Assembly (NCBI GenBank): GCA_035583355.1
Contig: DATEZQ010000003.1
Coordinates: 193,844 to 257,843, forward strand
Source of the DNA: Minisyncoccota bacterium
GTDB taxonomy: Bacteria; Patescibacteriota; Minisyncoccia; Phycocordibacterales; UBA6899
Direction of reading: 5' to 3'
Length of the DNA stretch: 64,000 nucleotides
Positions 5,817 to 59,588 of the stretch are shown here, one piece after another. The translations under genes were made by a program, and so were the position numbers. Each line of letters begins with the position of its first letter. The first letter of the stretch is position 1. The notes below the pieces were generated by a model that ran no database searches, was not told the DNA's origin, and worked only from the letters and a program-made list of their open reading frames with translations.

Positions 5817-6338
5817 CTAGCGGCCAGAAAAATCTTGGGTATAGATTGCGCACTTGTAAGCGCCAGGGCTACTGATGACGGTGGGGTCTGCGAAGTCTCC
5901 GTTTGGGAGACAGAGCGACATGGTGTCGGACAAATATCCCGTTTGTAGTTTATACCCCGCACCATTTGAAGCATAGTGATAGCCTTCCGTTACGCCTACT
6001 CCCGCACAGCCACTGGGGTCGATTGGCAGTATGGGGATGAATTCGGGTGCAAGGTCGGGGATGAACCCATTGCTTCCCGAGCGGTCGAGTCCCCAAGGGC
6101 CATCACCGGGATTTTTGCAAACACTAAGCCACATATTGGATGTGTTTGGGTAGGTATTGTATTTGTCTTTGTAGAGTTCGAGTGCCGTGTTGAGCTGCTT
6201 GAAGTCGCTGTAGCGTCTTGCGACACGCGCTTTCATGCGTGCACTGCTCAGTGCAGCCAGGATGACACTCGAAAGAAGTCCGATAATCGCAATCACAACC
6301 AAGAGTTCAATGAGAGTGAATCCTTTTTGATGTTTCAT
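5817..6338 (-). CDS. type IV pilin-like protein (prepilin-type N-terminal cleavage/methylation domain)
   Basis: MKHQKG|FTLIELLVVIAIIGLLSSVILAALS class III signal with conserved E5. Start taken at the M preceding the pilin leader. Confidence 0.8.
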   Translation of the reverse strand: MKHQKGFTLIELLVVIAIIGLLSSVILAALSSARMKARVARRYSDFKQLNTALELYKDKYNTYPNTSNMWLSVCKNPGDGPWGLDRSGSNGFIPDLAPEFIPILPIDPSGCAGVGVTEGYHYASNGAGYKLQTGYLSDTMSLCLPNGDFADPTVISSPGAYKCAIYTQDFSGR

Positions 6339-6448
6339 CAACGTATTATAGGTCAAAAACATATTTGAAGATACGGACAATTTCGTAAGTTTAATTGCTT
6401 ATACTCCTCAGTAGTTCGAATGTTGTTGAGTGTGAGTAGGGAGTCAAT

Positions 6449-6949
6449 CTAGAGGAGAAGCTTGCCGAGGCGGCCGTCGAAGACATTTGTACCTTGGCCG
6501 TCACGTGCGGTGACTTGGGAGGCGGGGAGAAGGTTGATGTAGGCTCTCCTTGGGTTGGTGCGGGCGAAGTAGATGTCGACGAACTGATATGAGCCAAAGC
6601 TCAGTCCTTTGGTGGTGCCTCGCACGATGTTAATGACACCTCGTTCTTGTTGGTTCGGTACAGCCATCTGAAAGTCAGAGTTCGCTGCATCGAAGTGATC
6701 TATTTTGAGTGCATCACTGTCGTAGGCGAGGACAAGCTCGGCGGCATTGATTACTGCATCTTCTGTTGAGATTGATATGCGCACATGCGTCAGCATGATG
6801 TCTCCGGTGTCATCAAGTTGCTGCATGTCGATGCTTGCATAATCTCGCGCCGCAAGTGCAAGGGATGGAAGAGCACCGCTGAATATTGCCATGAATACAA
6901 AACTCACGAAAAGACGTTGTACGCGAATACGTGAATGGAGGTGTAGCAT
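6449..6949 (-). CDS. hypothetical secreted protein
   Basis: N-terminal signal-like segment LFVSFVFMAIFSGALPSLALAA. Start chosen at the internal M. Co-directional with the upstream pilin gene. Confidence 0.45.
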   Translation of the reverse strand: MLHLHSRIRVQRLFVSFVFMAIFSGALPSLALAARDYASIDMQQLDDTGDIMLTHVRISISTEDAVINAAELVLAYDSDALKIDHFDAANSDFQMAVPNQQERGVINIVRGTTKGLSFGSYQFVDIYFARTNPRRAYINLLPASQVTARDGQGTNVFDGRLGKLLL

Positions 6950-7282
6950 AATTCGAATGAAGTATGAATTGTATAAAGAAAAACCATCGCTTAGGATGAG
7001 TCGAGAGATGTAGCACGTGTATGCGTGATACAAGGGTGACCGGTTACGCCAGTAGCTCCGCACGGTTCAGGCGTCCAAATAAGAACCGCGTTTCATTGCT
7101 TCCACCTAAGTATGTATAGTGAATTATGGTTTGCATTTTAAGTCAAGCATTTTATACTTGACTAATATAATTGTAAGTGTCATATGGGTTGTCCTAGGGC
7201 AGGTGCACAAATTCGATATTGTTCTCGTTGCATTTCTGTTTGGTTGTTGTAGTGTAACTTCAGAAAAGTATATGGAGATTCT

Positions 7283-24089: not shown

Positions 24090-25565
24090 TCACTCCTTGA
24101 TGTGTATGCGCAGCTTGCGCAAGACTTCGTTGAAGAAAGAGTCTCCGTCGCACATAGCGAAGAGGACCCAGATGAGGCACGAGGTGATGAATGCGGCGAT
24201 GCCGATATACCATTCCTGATCTCGCCCGAGGCGAATATCATTCTTGAGATAAAGGTAACCGCCTTGTCCGTCCTTCCCAGTCATCGAGACGCGTTTGAAA
24301 CGGACGCCTTGCACTTCTTTGCCCATAAGGATACGGGGGATTATTCCCGGCTCCTTTTGCGCTTGATTCATTACGCTGATGTTCCATCGCGTTGCGACGG
24401 ACGAAAAGAATGAATCATCAGCGACATTGTTCTGACTCGACTTTGCTACGCTCATCGGTTTTCCGAGGAGTAGCTCGTGCGAAAAAGGCTTTCCCGCCAA
24501 TTGCTCATTGAGCGCGATGGTCAGGCGTTCGTTTCCGCGGGGCATGCCGGTAAAGGCACGTGCATAGTCGACATGCTCTCCACTATCTCGAGTGCCGATG
24601 AGCACAACAAGTGCATTCTTCGCGAGTGCATCTTTGCCGTGCTTTCCAGAATCGAGCATGTATGCTTGGAGTGCGAGCATGTAACGGTCGGGATTGCCAC
24701 TAATGAGTTTTTCATTAGTGATGATCACGTAGAGGTCGCACTGCACATCGCCGAGACTTGCATTGGTATACGCAAGGGATTGCGCCCACCCATTACTGAA
24801 GGGGACGTTGCCAAAGATGAAACAGCGCTGTGGATTAATGAACCCCGAAAGATTGCGTGCAAGTTTCGGCATGAGGCCTTTCGCTTCGTACTCTGCGATA
24901 TCACCAGAGTGCTTGCGCATGAGCGATTCATTGCTCGCGAGGATGTAGTTGTCGTAGGAATTACGCGTGGTGACTGGGGCAGGTTGTCCCTGCTGTAGTC
25001 GCTCGCGCAAAGCACGCCATGAGCTCGGTTCGCCGACGCCCGCACGCTGCTGGATGTAGTCCGGCACAGGCACCGACCTCCGCCAGCGATGCTGGTTGGG
25101 ATTCTCGGGAAGGCGATATGAGTCGACAGTGTAATCACCGAGTGTTGTTCCCGCGTTGTAGTTCAGTTCGAACGTTGTATACGGGCACTGATGATAGCGT
25201 GTCTCTGCACGATAGCAGGTTCGCGACTGTTTGCCGTCGCCGCACTCATAAGGGACCATAACGACATACGGATCGCAGTCGTAGGTCCAGCGGCCCGGTC
25301 CATCGCGTGAAGTCTTGATGAGCTCACGCGTCGCGCTGCTTTCCCAGCCGTTCCAGTTTTCGTTGAAGGTGAGATTGCTTGCCTGTGCAATTTTCCATCC
25401 AATCCACGCAGTGGAGGGGACGAGAATGGTACAGATTGCGATCGCACCGGTCACGAACTCTATTTGCGTGATGCGCAGATAGGGGTGGAAACGCTTGAGT
25501 AGTGCTCCGGTGATGAATCCTGCGAGGAGTGCGGCGATGATGACGTAGAGTGCAATGGTAAGCAC
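24090..25565 (-). CDS. membrane protein (2 N-terminal TM, large extracytoplasmic domain, C-terminal TM)
   Basis: 491 aa. Hydrophobic segments at both ends. Cys-rich segment YDCDPYVVMVPYECGDGKQSRTCY. Confidence 0.5.
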   Translation of the reverse strand: MLTIALYVIIAALLAGFITGALLKRFHPYLRITQIEFVTGAIAICTILVPSTAWIGWKIAQASNLTFNENWNGWESSATRELIKTSRDGPGRWTYDCDPYVVMVPYECGDGKQSRTCYRAETRYHQCPYTTFELNYNAGTTLGDYTVDSYRLPENPNQHRWRRSVPVPDYIQQRAGVGEPSSWRALRERLQQGQPAPVTTRNSYDNYILASNESLMRKHSGDIAEYEAKGLMPKLARNLSGFINPQRCFIFGNVPFSNGWAQSLAYTNASLGDVQCDLYVIITNEKLISGNPDRYMLALQAYMLDSGKHGKDALAKNALVVLIGTRDSGEHVDYARAFTGMPRGNERLTIALNEQLAGKPFSHELLLGKPMSVAKSSQNNVADDSFFSSVATRWNISVMNQAQKEPGIIPRILMGKEVQGVRFKRVSMTGKDGQGGYLYLKNDIRLGRDQEWYIGIAAFITSCLIWVLFAMCDGDSFFNEVLRKLRIHIKE

Positions 25566-55149: not shown

Positions 55150-58132
<2,983 letters not shown>

Positions 58133-58265: not shown

Positions 58266-58377
58266 AGAGGTGGCTCGACGTTGTGGACCCACCCGGTCTC
58301 ATTCCGAACCCGGAAGTGAAACATGATAGTGCCAATGATACTCTTCAGAAGAGGGGAAAGTAGGTAGCTGCCTCGAT
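58266..58377 (+). rRNA. rrf: 5S ribosomal RNA
   Basis: gtggacccacccggtctcattccgaacccggaagtgaaac matches the 5S loop B/helix III consensus. Terminal helix gaggtggc/gctgcctc. Confidence 0.85.
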
Positions 58378-58495
58378 CAATGTAAACAATGAATGAAGAA
58401 ACACTCGAAAGAGTGTTTTTTCTTATATGTTAAATTCTTAATGCAAGGTCTCCGCCTTTTGCAGAGGCTTGAATTTGTCAGAAGAGGGGAAATAA

Positions 58496-58567
58496 AAGAA
58501 CGCCCCTTCGGGGACCAGGGCGTTCTTGCCCGATAGTGTCGCGCCTCCGCGCGTCAGATCAACTCAC
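58496..58567 (+). repeat. conserved ~70 nt two-hairpin module (copy 2, downstream of 5S)
   Basis: Near-identical to 5335-5406. Second hairpin cgcgc-ctcc-gcgcg here versus ctcgc-ctcc-gcgag in copy 1. Confidence 0.7.
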
Positions 58568-58577
58568 GCCTCAGCTA

Positions 58578-58700
58578 CGCTGAGTCGCTCACGGGTAGGT
58601 ACGCTGCAAATGCGCAATCCACTGATTGCGTCGCACTCGCTCTAGCAGGTAAGCCAATGATACCGAGATGCGCTGAGTCGCTCACGGGTAGGTACGCTGC
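58578..58700 (+). repeat. 30 nt direct repeat x2 (cgctgagtcgctcacgggtaggtacgctgc) with 63 nt spacer
   Basis: Exact copies at 58578-58607 and 58671-58700. Related to the gactcgctcac motif of the repeat family. Confidence 0.6.
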
Positions 58701-58819
58701 CTCAATACACAGAGTTGCTCATTGTTAAATGTGCACATATTTAAATATTTAAATGCGCATTTAAGGATGTTTAGGGCGAACGTGCTAAACGTCTTTTTGG
58801 TGAAAGAGCGAGGCAGGGA

Positions 58820-58850
58820 TTGACTTTTTGGCACTTTCAATTAATATTAT
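58820..58850 (+). promoter_or_regulatory. putative promoter of tRNA-like RNA #2
   Basis: TTGACT, 17 nt spacer, AATATT (or 19 nt spacer, TATTAT), 20-25 nt upstream of GGGGCTG. Confidence 0.35.
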
Positions 58851-58869
58851 AGGGCTTTGTTCTTTCCAT

Positions 58870-59048
58870 GGGGCTGCCTTTCGGGGCGTGTATGAGTGAC
58901 TACTCCTCTGGTACGCGAAGTTTGCGTATCTCGTCGTGGGCTTACCGCCTGCCAGCTCCTCCAATTTCTTTGCTCTTTGGGGCCGTCGTGCGAGCGTCTG
59001 TTCCCTGGGGAATGGAAGGCGAAGGTTCAACTCCTTCCGGCTCCGCCA
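58870..59048 (+). ncRNA. tRNA-like/tmRNA-like structured RNA candidate #2 (GGGGCUG...CCA)
   Basis: 5' GGGGCTG pairs 7/7 with 3' CGGCTCC, including a G3:U70 wobble. T-arm GAAGG-TTCAACT-CCTTC. Discriminator G, encoded CCA. Terminator at 59061-59086. An alternative 5' strand GGGGCCG lies at 58979. Two reading frames across the element are stop-free and the third has only an early TGA, so no tag ORF is evident. Confidence 0.4.
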
Positions 59049-59060
59049 AAGAGATCTCTA

Positions 59061-59086
59061 AGCCCCACGTGATGGGGTTTTTCTTT
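59061..59086 (+). terminator. rho-independent terminator after RNA candidate #2
   Basis: cccca-cgtga-tgggg followed by TTTTTCTTT. Confidence 0.55.
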
Positions 59087-59177: not shown

Positions 59178-59588
59178 ATGTCGAACCAGTCGATGTCCCG
59201 CTCTGATACTGGGGTAATGCTCAGCGCGTTACTGCTCCAGATGCTCTGCAATCTTCATTTGGCACAGCGAGCGTTGCTGCAGGGCTATCTCACACTCTGT
59301 GATAGTAGTCTGCGTAACGCCTTGCTTTCGAGCATGGGCTCCGTGCGTTTCGTTGCGAGTGAAGATGATGCAGTTGTGATGAGGCAGATGAATCATGTCA
59401 CCGAGAAGCTGCGTTCCGCAGTCGATTCATTGTCGGATCACAAGCAAACGGAATCCTCGATCTTGGAAGCGGGCATCGCTATCCTTGATGCGGAGGCGGT
59501 TACCTCAGGTACTGCTCCCTCCGCTGAGTTCAGCAGTATTCTCGAGGAGATATCGAATCTGTACCTCGCACTTGATGTCCCTGCTTAG
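59178..59588 (+). CDS. hypothetical protein
   Basis: 136 aa ORF followed by a strong terminator at 59602-59636 (13 bp stem, then TTTTT). Confidence 0.5.
   Translation: MSNQSMSRSDTGVMLSALLLQMLCNLHLAQRALLQGYLTLCDSSLRNALLSSMGSVRFVASEDDAVVMRQMNHVTEKLRSAVDSLSDHKQTESSILEAGIAILDAEAVTSGTAPSAEFSSILEEISNLYLALDVPA

What the first reader, a model, noticed from the sequence alone, without database searches (positions are those of the whole stretch)
58820..59086. Promoter-to-terminator RNA gene with tmRNA-like termini (GGGGCUG...CCA, G3:U70) but no tag ORF and only 179 nt
The element has a consensus -35/-10, a 5' GGGGCTG that pairs perfectly with a 3' CGGCTCC through the alanine-identity G3:U70 wobble, a canonical T-arm (GAAGG-TTCAACT-CCTTC), an encoded CCA and a strong terminator. 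GGGGCUG is the near-universal tmRNA 5' end. Against a tmRNA call, it is only about 179 nt, two reading frames are stop-free across the whole element and the third has only an early TGA, so a normal tag-plus-stop mRNA-like region is absent. It does not fold into a canonical cloverleaf. It may be a highly reduced or otherwise unusual tmRNA, a tRNA-Ala-like RNA with a large insertion, or a new tRNA-like sRNA.
Basis: seen in the sequence. Interest (0 to 1): 0.7.

Follow-up and report, generated by a model that had tools for sequence, protein, structure and literature searches.

The report
Two tandem anticodon-less tRNA-like genes
What looked like one odd 179-nt tmRNA-like gene in a tiny groundwater (CPR/Paceibacteria) bacterium is really a small operon of two tRNA-shaped RNAs that cannot read codons; it is conserved in a few close relatives, matches no described RNA family, and its function is unknown.

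Summary
The proposed long-range pairing of the two ends is not the best reading. GGGGCUG (58870) has its own closer partner CAGCUCC-U-CCA (58953-63), directly preceded by a T-like hairpin; this is unit 1, 94 nt. The 3' CGGCUCC-G-CCA pairs with a second GGGGCCG at 58979; this is unit 2, 70 nt. Two of the three relatives (L003, L090) keep the promoter, leader, unit 2 and terminator but lack unit 1 altogether. Unit 2 has a 7-bp acceptor stem, an unpaired 9-nt linker, a 9-10 bp hairpin with a 3-4 nt loop and no anticodon, a T-arm and GCCA. Across four genomes 95% of pair cells are paired and 5 pairs change on both sides, while four-fold sites are near saturation. G3:U70 is present in only 1 of 4 unit 2 copies, and the discriminator is G or U, never A. 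ARAGORN and Rfam find no tmRNA, and the tRNA model is sub-threshold (25.8 against 29 bits) in the window only. There is no tag frame. The closest known architecture is the TLD-only "mini-tmRNA", but its defining features are not met. Verdict: an undescribed, narrow-clade, non-decoding tRNA mimic; its function is inferred only.

The parts
58820..58847 (+). Sigma-70-type promoter: TTGACT, 16-nt spacer, TAATAT
   Evidence: The -35 and -10 hexamers are invariant or nearly so in window, L002, L003 and L090, although four-fold sites are only 39-57% identical between the two sub-clades.
58853..58869 (+). 5' leader; contains the invariant motif GTTCTTTCC (58859-58867). Presumed to be removed by RNase P
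   Evidence: Alignments show the motif identical in all four genomes. The transcription start and the RNase P cleavage are inferred, not shown.
58870..58963 (+). Unit 1, a 94-nt tRNA-like RNA. Acceptor GGGGCUG (58870-76) pairs with CAGCUCC (58953-59) and includes G3.U70. It has internal hairpins (for example 58910-30) and a T-like arm at 58936-52, then discriminator U 58960 and CCA 58961-63
   Evidence: The unconstrained MFE gives the acceptor plus T-like arm in both window and L002. In the window/L002 comparison, 4 of 5 stem substitutions keep pairing, including U.G to C-G and G.U to A-U in the T-like stem. Unit 1 is absent from L003 and L090. No Rfam hit even at E<=10.
58964..58978 (+). 15-nt inter-unit spacer
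   Evidence: The spacing is typical of tRNA operons (established knowledge).
58979..59048 (+). Unit 2, a 70-nt tRNA-like RNA. Acceptor GGGGCCG (58979-85) pairs with CGGCUCC (59038-44). It has an unpaired linker at 58986-93, a central hairpin at 58994-59020 with loop CUGG, a T-arm at 59021-37, discriminator G 59045 and CCA 59046-48
   Evidence: Rfam tRNA 25.8 bits (gathering score 29) and mascRNA 22.9 bits at these coordinates. MFE equals this structure in all four genomes. 21 pairs, 95% of cells paired, 5 pairs changed on both sides, slid controls 32-54% paired. Covariance model R1 scores the four copies 69-95 bits and finds nothing else.
59060..59086 (+). Intrinsic terminator: 8-bp hairpin followed by a U-run
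   Evidence: A hairpin plus U-run lies at the same place in L002, L003 and L090 with different stem sequences.

Best explanation
The locus is a small, independently transcribed operon of non-decoding tRNA-like RNAs in a Patescibacteria (Paceibacteria) genome. There are two units in the window and L002, and one unit in L003 and L090. Shown: each unit has its own 7-bp acceptor stem, an adjacent T-type hairpin and an encoded N-CCA. Unit 2 replaces the D-arm with an unpaired ~9-nt linker (U8 retained; GG in 3 of 4 copies). It replaces the anticodon arm with a 9-10 bp hairpin closed by a 3-4 nt loop, so it cannot read a codon. Stems are maintained by compensatory change, while the acceptor-stem sequence, U8-C9, G73 and CCA are invariant. 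Inferred: the primary transcript starts ~15 nt upstream of unit 1. RNase P cuts 5' of each G1, and the 3' ends are trimmed to CCA, giving stable RNAs of ~94 and ~70 nt. These act as tRNA 'top-half' mimics through the acceptor end and elbow. That means they either bind a factor that reads that surface, or they are charged and used outside normal decoding. SmpB/EF-Tu binding, as for TLD-only mini-tmRNAs, is the best precedent. My confidence in the anatomy is about 0.85. My confidence in any specific mechanism is at most 0.3.
For: Organism: MetRS and L10 homologs are named Paceibacterota/Patescibacteria. Two-unit anatomy. Unit 2 stands alone behind the same promoter and leader in L003 and L090. 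Covariation: the T stem is GAAGG/CCUUC, GUGGG/CCCAC or AUGGG/CCCAU; 5 pairs change on both sides, 95% of cells are paired against 32-54% in slid controls, and 2 of 500 shuffles reach the observed score. Selection: four-fold degenerate sites are 39-57% identical between the window and L003/L090, yet the promoter hexamers, the leader motif, the acceptor stem (13 of 14 nt invariant), U8, G73 and CCA persist. Strand: G.U pairs (two in the window's unit 1 T-like stem, plus G3.U70) would be C.A mismatches on the minus strand, and the module scan finds 0 on that strand. Not decoding: central loops are CUGG, UAU, UGU and CGU. Context: the locus sits between 23S-5S and the L10 leader-rplJL, within the str/S10/spc translation-gene neighbourhood. 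[quoted passage not shown]
Against: There are only four independent unit 2 sequences and two unit 1 sequences, all from one narrow clade. Scans of GTDB species representatives and JGI metagenomes with end-anchored patterns found no further members. Relatives with L10 at 77-84% identity have other genes at this position. There are no expression data. Three of four T-loops have 6 nt instead of 7, and Rfam's tRNA model does not report the relatives, so real L-shape mimicry is unproven. Unit 1's divergence between window and L002 (about 85% identity) is within the neutral range for that pair (73-87% at four-fold sites), so selection on unit 1 rests only on the pattern of its substitutions. No partner protein was identified: no SmpB, AlaRS or tmRNA in the sequence held.
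Confidence: 0.6

Rival explanations
1. TLD-only mini-tmRNA. The units are reduced ssrA-type RNAs consisting of a tRNA-like domain without an mRNA-like domain. They would bind SmpB and either perform tag-less ribosome rescue or titrate SmpB to modulate trans-translation.
For: The architecture equals a tmRNA TLD: acceptor stem, unpaired D-loop analogue, a helix in place of the anticodon arm, T-arm and CCA. Unit 1 carries the canonical GGGGCUG/CAGCUCC acceptor with G3.U70 in both genomes. The window's unit 2 T-loop UUCAACU equals the E. coli tmRNA T-loop (my own knowledge). The linker GGCCGAC in L002/L003 loosely recalls the tmRNA GGAUUCGAC (my own knowledge). CDS-less forms of ~65 nt are documented in jakobid mitochondria, plastids and phage DS6A, and charging is not needed for the inhibitory effect.
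Against: No Rfam tmRNA-clan family (RF00023, the permuted forms, mt-tmRNA RF02544) is reported for unit 1, or for L090's unit 2, even at E<=10 on 126-171 nt. ARAGORN tmRNA mode finds nothing. The discriminator is U or G, never the A73 kept even in jakobid mini-tmRNAs. G3:C70 occurs in 3 of 4 unit 2 copies. No SmpB gene or canonical ssrA could be examined for this lineage.
Confidence: 0.2
2. One reading: one ~179-nt RNA whose 5' GGGGCUG pairs with the 3' CGGCUCC. This would be a highly reduced tmRNA or a tRNA-Ala with a ~110-nt insertion or intron.
For: The two ends can pair (7 pairs including two wobbles) in the window and in L002. The enforced fold is only 0.7-0.9 kcal/mol worse than the two-unit fold.
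Against: L003 and L090 have no 5' GGGGCUG block but keep a complete acceptor stem. Each strand has a nearer partner with fewer wobbles, followed by its own NCCA. There is no tag frame and no tmRNA hit. The fold is no better than shuffles. 110 nt is too short for a group I intron, and no intron model hit was obtained.
Confidence: 0.04
3. Decaying tRNA pseudogenes, for example former rRNA-operon-distal tRNAs. They would still be transcribed but have no function of their own.
For: tRNA model scores are poor or absent. Three copies have 6-nt T-loops. The central region varies. Unit 1 is present or absent between sub-clades. The surrounding region is variable: the neighbouring ORF is 27-37% identical and gene content differs.
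Against: All 21 unit 2 pairs are kept (95% of cells) through compensatory changes at near-saturated neutral divergence. The promoter, terminator, CCA and acceptor sequence are conserved. Streamlined CPR genomes rarely keep dead DNA with a consensus promoter (inference).
Confidence: 0.12
4. Genuine decoding tRNAs of aberrant structure (D-armless or class-II-like) that standard tools miss, as reported for intron-containing tRNAs in Patescibacteria.
For: Patescibacteria tRNAs are known to escape standard annotation (PMC13011429). Opening the top pairs of the central hairpin could give 7-nt loops.
Against: The would-be anticodons would differ among near relatives (UGU, CGU, UAU and none in the window), and position 33 would be C rather than U. 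Loops are 3-4 nt in the MFE of all four. ARAGORN finds nothing.
Confidence: 0.03
5. A footprint or target of mobile-element integration, that is, a tRNA-like attB whose 3' half is repeatedly replaced. This would explain the mosaic 3' half and the variable downstream genes.
For: The 3' two-thirds of unit 2 differs block-wise between window and L002, while the 5' 20 nt are near-identical. The downstream ORF is hypervariable.
Against: No displaced copy of the 3' half within the remaining 5 kb. No integrase or other mobile-element gene nearby. This would explain the variation but not why the gene exists.
Confidence: 0.05

Closest known systems
TLD-only ('CDS-less') mini-tmRNA: jakobid mitochondrial ssrA (Rfam RF02544), Mallomonadaceae plastid forms (~65 bp), mycobacteriophage DS6A
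   Same: Size of ~65-70 nt. Acceptor stem plus T-arm plus CCA, with no anticodon arm and no tag frame. An unpaired D-loop analogue. Jakoba libera and DS6A are contiguous, non-permuted forms.
   Different: Those RNAs keep G3.U70 and A73 and are detectably homologous to tmRNA. Here the discriminator is G or U, G3:C70 occurs in 3 of 4 unit 2 copies, no tmRNA-clan model is reported, two units lie in tandem, and the host is a free-standing bacterial chromosome rather than an organelle or phage.
Standard one-piece tmRNA (Rfam RF00023)
   Same: A 5' GGGGCUG, a 3' ...CAGCUCC-N-CCA, a T-loop of UUCAACU/UUCGA type, and an own promoter and terminator.
   Different: No mRNA-like domain, resume codon, tag, pseudoknots or P2 helix. 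Length is 70-94 nt against ~350 nt. No CM or ARAGORN hit.
tRNA-Ala / canonical tRNA (Rfam RF00005)
   Same: A 7-bp acceptor stem (the GGGGCUG/CAGCUCC type is common in tRNA-Ala), U8, a T-arm, encoded CCA and operon-like tandem spacing. The window's unit 2 reaches 25.8 bits.
   Different: Below the gathering score of 29 in the window, and not reported in the relatives. No D-stem in unit 2, no 7-nt anticodon loop, the discriminator is not A, and three copies have a 6-nt T-loop.
mascRNA / MEN-beta tRNA-like small RNAs (Rfam RF01684, eukaryotic)
   Same: An anticodon-less tRNA mimic cut out by RNase P. This model gave the second-best hit in the window (22.9 bits), and on L090's unit 2 it was the only hit from a tRNA-like family (13.3 bits).
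   Different: A vertebrate nuclear lncRNA 3'-end product with CCA added post-transcriptionally. The score is far below the gathering score of 42.5. There is no evolutionary link.
Bacterial Y-RNA-like YrlA tRNA-like module (from my own knowledge; not tested here)
   Same: A bacterial non-coding RNA that contains a tRNA-like acceptor/T/D module lacking decoding function.
   Different: In YrlA the RNA termini form the Ro(Rsr)-binding stem rather than an acceptor stem ending in CCA. No rsr gene was seen here and there is no Rfam hit.

Membership tests
tmRNA, standard form (RF00023) | Match to the family covariance model, or an ARAGORN tmRNA call | tested here: not met
   No hit at gathering score or at E<=10 on local stretches. 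ARAGORN finds no tmRNA in the window or any locus.
tmRNA, standard form (RF00023) | mRNA-like domain: resume codon, short tag ORF ending in a stop, flanked by pseudoknots | tested here: not met
   The only stops are TGA at 58893 and 58897, 23-27 nt from the 5' end. The units are 94 and 70 nt with simple hairpins.
tmRNA (any form) and tRNA-Ala | G3.U70 alanine identity pair | tested here: inconclusive
   Unit 1 has G3.U70 in both genomes that carry it. Unit 2 has G3.U70 only in the window, and G3:C70 in L002, L003 and L090.
tmRNA (any form) and tRNA-Ala | A73 discriminator before CCA | tested here: not met
   Unit 1 has U (58960). Unit 2 has G in all four genomes. Jakobid mini-tmRNAs keep A73 (PMC3590771).
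TLD-only mini-tmRNA (RF02544 mt-tmRNA, DS6A type) | Architecture: acceptor stem, T-arm, unpaired D-loop analogue, no anticodon arm, no CDS, ~65 nt | tested here: met
   Unit 2 structure in all four genomes.
TLD-only mini-tmRNA (RF02544 mt-tmRNA, DS6A type) | Detectable homology to tmRNA (family model, or the lineage's own ssrA TLD) | tested here: not met
   No tRNA/tmRNA-clan hit for L090's unit 2 or the window's unit 1 at E<=10. In the window's unit 2 the best clan member is tRNA; one lower-scoring clan hit was suppressed and its identity is unknown. Comparison with this lineage's own ssrA was not possible.
TLD-only mini-tmRNA / tmRNA | SmpB binding, alanylation by AlaRS, co-occurrence with smpB | not testable with these tools
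Whole genomes could not be scanned.
tRNA (RF00005) | Score at or above the gathering threshold (29 bits) | tested here: not met
   25.8 bits for the window's unit 2. No hit for L002, L003 or L090 or for unit 1.
tRNA (RF00005) | Anticodon arm with a 7-nt loop (U33) and a conserved anticodon; D-arm | tested here: not met
   The central hairpin loops are CUGG, UAU, UGU and CGU. The linker of 8-9 nt forms no D-stem.
tRNA (RF00005) | 7-bp acceptor stem coaxial with a 5-bp T-stem, T-loop UUCRA.., N73-CCA | tested here: met
   Acceptor and T-stem cells are 100% paired in 4 genomes, with 3 compensatory T-stem pairs. However, the T-loop has 6 nt in L002/L003, and L090's T-stem is shortened by a 1-nt deletion.

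The most novel reading that the evidence does not exclude
A lineage of ultra-small CPR bacteria maintains, next to its rRNA and ribosomal-protein genes, dedicated chromosomal tRNA 'top-half' mimics. Their sequence-invariant acceptor end (G73-CCA) would be charged by a non-alanine synthetase or bound by SmpB/EF-Tu. That would make them either a bacterial, tag-less, TLD-type ribosome-rescue or regulatory RNA, or an aminoacyl carrier for a non-ribosomal reaction. Together with the unrelated short G3:U70 mini-elements seen in other CPR classes and in phage contigs, they would belong to a wider, unannotated class of anticodon-less tRNA mimics.
Probability: 0.2. Interest if true: 0.7.

Novelty: new variant of a known kind. 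Interest (0 to 1): 0.45.

Why it matters
Non-decoding tRNA mimics are few and each has been informative: tmRNA, mascRNA, viral TLSs and YrlA. A promoter-to-terminator operon of anticodon-less tRNA-shaped RNAs in a streamlined CPR genome, under purifying selection yet invisible to ARAGORN and Rfam, shows that annotation pipelines miss such genes. If the RNAs bind SmpB or are aminoacylated, they would be the first chromosomal bacterial counterpart of the organellar and phage TLD-only RNAs, and a handle on translation quality control in Patescibacteria. If they prove to be relics, the case is still a useful caution: GGGGCUG...CCA plus G3:U70 in a single sequence is not evidence for a tmRNA.

Tried and rejected
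(1) ARAGORN on the window and 20+ loci, including tmRNA mode on everything held, found nothing at the locus.
(2) Rfam at gathering and permissive thresholds gave only a sub-threshold tRNA/mascRNA hit in the window.
(3) A genome-contig scan with GGGGCYG-N24-40-GGTTCRA-N5-8-CRGCYCCNCCA returned 63 loci. Only L063 (the L003 genome) is this element. The rest are chance CDS matches, truncated tRNA-Ala derivatives or other mini-elements.
(4) A metagenome-contig scan anchored on unit 2's ends gave 6 hits, none related.
(5) A viral-contig scan and BLAST against phages showed no relative of this element.
(6) Homologs of the neighbouring ORF gave one new locus, L090. L10 homologs gave no further instance.
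(7) Integration-site idea: no repeat of the 3' half downstream.
(8) The downstream ORF as a partner: no Pfam hit. The AlphaFold model is confident (pLDDT 87.8), but it is a generic helical bundle with no PDB match below E=0.1. This was uninformative.
(9) Coding potential of the element: the long frame is broken by a 1-nt indel between window and L002, so it is not a peptide gene.
(10) A third 'module' at 24540-24648 from my scan lies inside a CDS, has no T-loop motif or promoter, and is judged to be chance.
(11) Mao et al. 2009 and Jacob et al. 2004 could not be read. Their content is cited only through PMC4131195, PMC11915505 and PMC3590771.

Full report
OBSERVATION.
- a near-consensus promoter, TTGACT, 16-nt spacer, TAATAT, at 58820-47
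- GGGGCTG at 58870-76
- a T-arm, GAAGG-TTCAACT-CCTTC, at 59021-37
- CGGCTCC at 59038-44, G at 59045 and CCA at 59046-48
- a hairpin plus T-run terminator at 59060-86

Two details are inaccurate. The proposed terminal helix needs two wobble pairs. Only one frame is stop-free, and the other two each carry one early TGA. ARAGORN finds no tRNA or tmRNA anywhere in the 64-kb window. Rfam at gathering thresholds finds only 23S, 5S, a c-di-GMP-II riboswitch and the L10 leader. The 179-nt stretch folds no better than shuffled sequence (z = 0.04).

THE KEY CLUE. A permissive Rfam search of the locus gave a sub-threshold tRNA hit: 25.8 bits against a gathering score of 29, E = 0.0036 for 501 nt. Reading the sequence again, the first GGGGCUG (58870) also has a nearer partner. 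That partner is CAGCUCC at 58953-59, followed by U-CCA and directly preceded by a hairpin in the position of a T-arm. So each 5' strand has its own 3' strand plus NCCA. Unit 1 is 58870-58963 (94 nt), a 15-nt spacer follows, and unit 2 is 58979-59048 (70 nt). A simple scan for 'acceptor + adjacent T-hairpin + NCCA' recovers exactly these two modules on the plus strand and none on the minus strand. About 1.1 chance modules are expected per shuffled window, so adjacency and conservation carry the argument, not the motif alone.

ORGANISM AND RELATIVES. MetRS and L10 homologs place the window in Patescibacteria/Paceibacteria. The window's own genome is deposited as 'MAG TPA Candidatus Paceibacterota bacterium'. 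Syntenic relatives were fetched through MetRS and the neighbouring ORF:
- L002: groundwater contig, MetRS 97% identical
- L003: GCA_021851895.1, MetRS 92% identical
- L090: JGI contig
- L001: the same sequence as the window

Four-fold degenerate sites are 73-87% identical between the window and L002. They are only 39-57% identical between the window and L003/L090, which is close to saturation.

COMPARATIVE TEST OF THE TWO MODELS. L002 has both units. L003 and L090 keep the promoter, the leader (with the invariant motif GUUCUUUCC), unit 2 and a terminator, but lack the whole unit 1 block. Enforcing either pairing costs similar energy, so it is the comparative data that reject the single-RNA model.

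For unit 2, counted across four genomes:
- 21 pairs, with 95% of cells paired
- 5 pairs changed on both sides, three of them in the T stem (GAAGG/CCUUC, GUGGG/CCCAC, AUGGG/CCCAU)
- slid-register controls give 32-54% pairing and at most one such pair
- 2 of 500 shuffles reach the observed values

The acceptor stem is sequence-invariant except at position 70. That base is U in the window (G3.U70) and C in the other three (G3:C70). U8, C9, G73 and CCA are invariant.

The middle of unit 2 is an unpaired 8-9 nt linker, followed by a 9-10 bp hairpin closed by CUGG, UAU, UGU or CGU. There is no D-stem and no anticodon loop. Three of the four T-loops have 6 nt.

For unit 1 (window against L002) there are 14 differences. 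Nine lie in loops and one in an unpaired stretch next to a stem. Four of the five stem changes preserve pairing, including two wobble-to-Watson-Crick changes in the T-like stem. However, overall divergence is within the neutral range for that genome pair, so selection on unit 1 is less secure.

WHAT IT IS NOT. It is not a tmRNA:
- there is no model or ARAGORN hit
- for L090's unit 2 and the window's unit 1, no tRNA/tmRNA-clan family appears even at E <= 10 on 126-171 nt
- there is no tag frame and there are no pseudoknots
- the discriminator is U or G rather than A

It is not a decoding tRNA. The would-be anticodon region differs in every genome and forms a 3-4 nt loop. It is not a peptide gene, because the open frame is broken by an indel between the window and L002.

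It has no detectable link to a mobile element. There is no integrase nearby, no duplicated 3' half and no similarity to phage records. A covariance model built from the four unit 2 copies (R1) scores them at 69-95 bits. It finds no other copy in the window or in the more distant relatives L005-L007 and L091-L095. End-anchored pattern scans of GTDB species representatives and JGI metagenomes found no further members. As far as these tools reach, the family is confined to a narrow clade.

SURROUNDINGS. The operon lies between the 23S-5S genes and the L10 leader/rplJ-rplL, then MetRS. It sits within a region that also carries EF-G, EF-Tu, the S10/spc ribosomal protein genes, SecY, Adk and Map. 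Directly downstream in all four genomes is a 121-149 aa ORF with its own promoter. It is hypervariable (27-37% identity) and has no Pfam hit. It folds confidently into a helical bundle but has no informative structural neighbour. Nothing links it functionally to the RNA beyond adjacency. No SmpB, AlaRS or tmRNA is present in the sequence I hold.

MECHANISM.
Shown: a conserved promoter-to-terminator unit encodes one or two RNAs with a tRNA-type acceptor/T minihelix and encoded CCA. These are maintained by compensatory evolution, and they cannot decode.

Inferred from established tRNA biology: RNase P recognises the acceptor/T-arm minihelix, and 3' exonucleases trim to an encoded CCA. The precursor would therefore be cut 5' of each G1 and trimmed to CCA, yielding RNAs of ~94 and ~70 nt.

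The stems covary freely, whereas the acceptor sequence, G73 and CCA are frozen. This points to the acceptor end as the functional surface. Two readings fit:
- (a) A TLD-type mimic that binds SmpB/EF-Tu. TLD-only RNAs exist in jakobid mitochondria, some plastids and phage DS6A. [quoted passage not shown]
- (b) An RNA charged by a synthetase other than AlaRS and used outside decoding.

I rate (a) at about 0.2 and (b) at about 0.2. The remaining probability goes to the other rivals listed in the report and to functions I have not named.

COMPARISON AND NOVELTY. The element works like, or at least is built like, a tmRNA tRNA-like domain or a D-armless tRNA-like RNA. It fails the membership tests for tmRNA, mini-tmRNA and tRNA: A73, conserved G3.U70, model homology and an anticodon loop. 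It is best described as a new variant of a known kind, the non-decoding tRNA mimic, rather than a member of a described family. Interest is moderate: a real, selected, unannotated RNA gene in a poorly understood phylum, but narrowly distributed and with no experimental handle yet.

Noticed in passing
window 58470-58612 (35-nt tail repeated at 58573-58607 and 58666-58700); L002 6420-6565; L090 105-250; duplicated in tandem in L003 6402-7000: A second conserved, structured, unannotated RNA-like block lies between the 5S terminator and the element's promoter. It has a long-range helix (GGCGUUCUUGCCCG with CGGGUAGGUACGCU) and internal hairpins. 7 of 32 predicted pairs change on both sides across 3 genomes. 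There is no Rfam hit. The motif CACGGGUAGGUACGCUG vaguely recalls a T-box sequence, but the T-box model does not hit.
   Followed up: partly
window ~58768-58800: A hairpin plus U-run (GTTTAGGGCGAACGTGCTAAACGTCTTTTT) lies immediately upstream of the element's -35. It is conserved with compensatory changes in L003 and L090, and is probably the terminator of the upstream unknown RNA.
   Followed up: no
window 58859-58867: The leader motif GTTCTTTCC is identical in all four genomes, although it should be removed from the mature RNA. No explanation yet; it could be a processing signal or an initial-transcribed-region signal.
   Followed up: no
window 59178-59588 (+): An ORF of 136 aa follows the element in every genome. 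It is hypervariable (27-37% identity where MetRS is 92-97%), has no Pfam hit, and gives a confident all-helical AlphaFold model with no structural neighbour.
   Followed up: yes
L014, L015, L025, L031, L052, L066 (Peribacteria / Gracilibacteria / Peregrinibacteria); also L016, L056, L044, L043, L069, L024, L036, L013: A recurring 70-72-nt element, GGGGCYGG...CCRGCUCC-A-CCA, with G3:U70, A73, a tiny D hairpin and a ~9-bp central stem with a 7-8 nt loop. ARAGORN does not call these, except L069 as tRNA-Cys. They may be an unusual alanine-identity tRNA or tRNA-like class.
   Followed up: partly
L059 3421-3481 (Saccharibacteria contig): A 61-nt element, GGGGCUGAAUGAGUUCGAC-hairpin-CAGGUUCGAUGCCUG-UCAGCUCCACCA. 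It has a tmRNA-style D-loop (GAGUUCGAC), G3:U70 and A73 but no mRNA-like domain. It looks like a TLD-only tmRNA in a CPR bacterium, and ARAGORN does not call it.
   Followed up: no
L027 5658-5722 (Dojkabacteria): A 65-nt anticodon-less tRNA-Ala-like element lies 30 nt upstream of a genuine tRNA-Ala(UGC), with tRNA-Ile about 720 nt further upstream. This is another tandem 'mimic + tRNA' arrangement in a CPR genome.
   Followed up: no
L077, L078, L080, L081 (62 nt); L083, L087, L089 (70 nt, behind a consensus promoter): Viral contigs carry short G3:U70/A73 tRNA-like elements without an anticodon arm. The 62-nt type matches an unannotated region near the right end of Microbacterium phages (Armstrong, Brahms and others). 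They may be DS6A-like TLD-only RNAs.
   Followed up: partly
window 7029-7112 (-): A c-di-GMP-II riboswitch aptamer (64.6 bits) in a Paceibacteria genome, immediately downstream of an unannotated 204-aa ORF on the same strand (6449-7063), whose start it overlaps; the nearest ORF ahead of it on that strand (5817-6380, 187 aa) is also unannotated. I did not check what it controls.
   Followed up: no
window 55161-58127 and 58266-58376; whole window: 23S carries insertions relative to the bacterial model (for example ~55435-55512). No 16S is adjacent, since a DUF218 gene precedes 23S. ARAGORN finds no tRNA gene in the whole 64 kb. A 15-nt piece of the 5S 3' region (TCAGAAGAGGGGAAA) is repeated at 58478-58492.
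   Followed up: no
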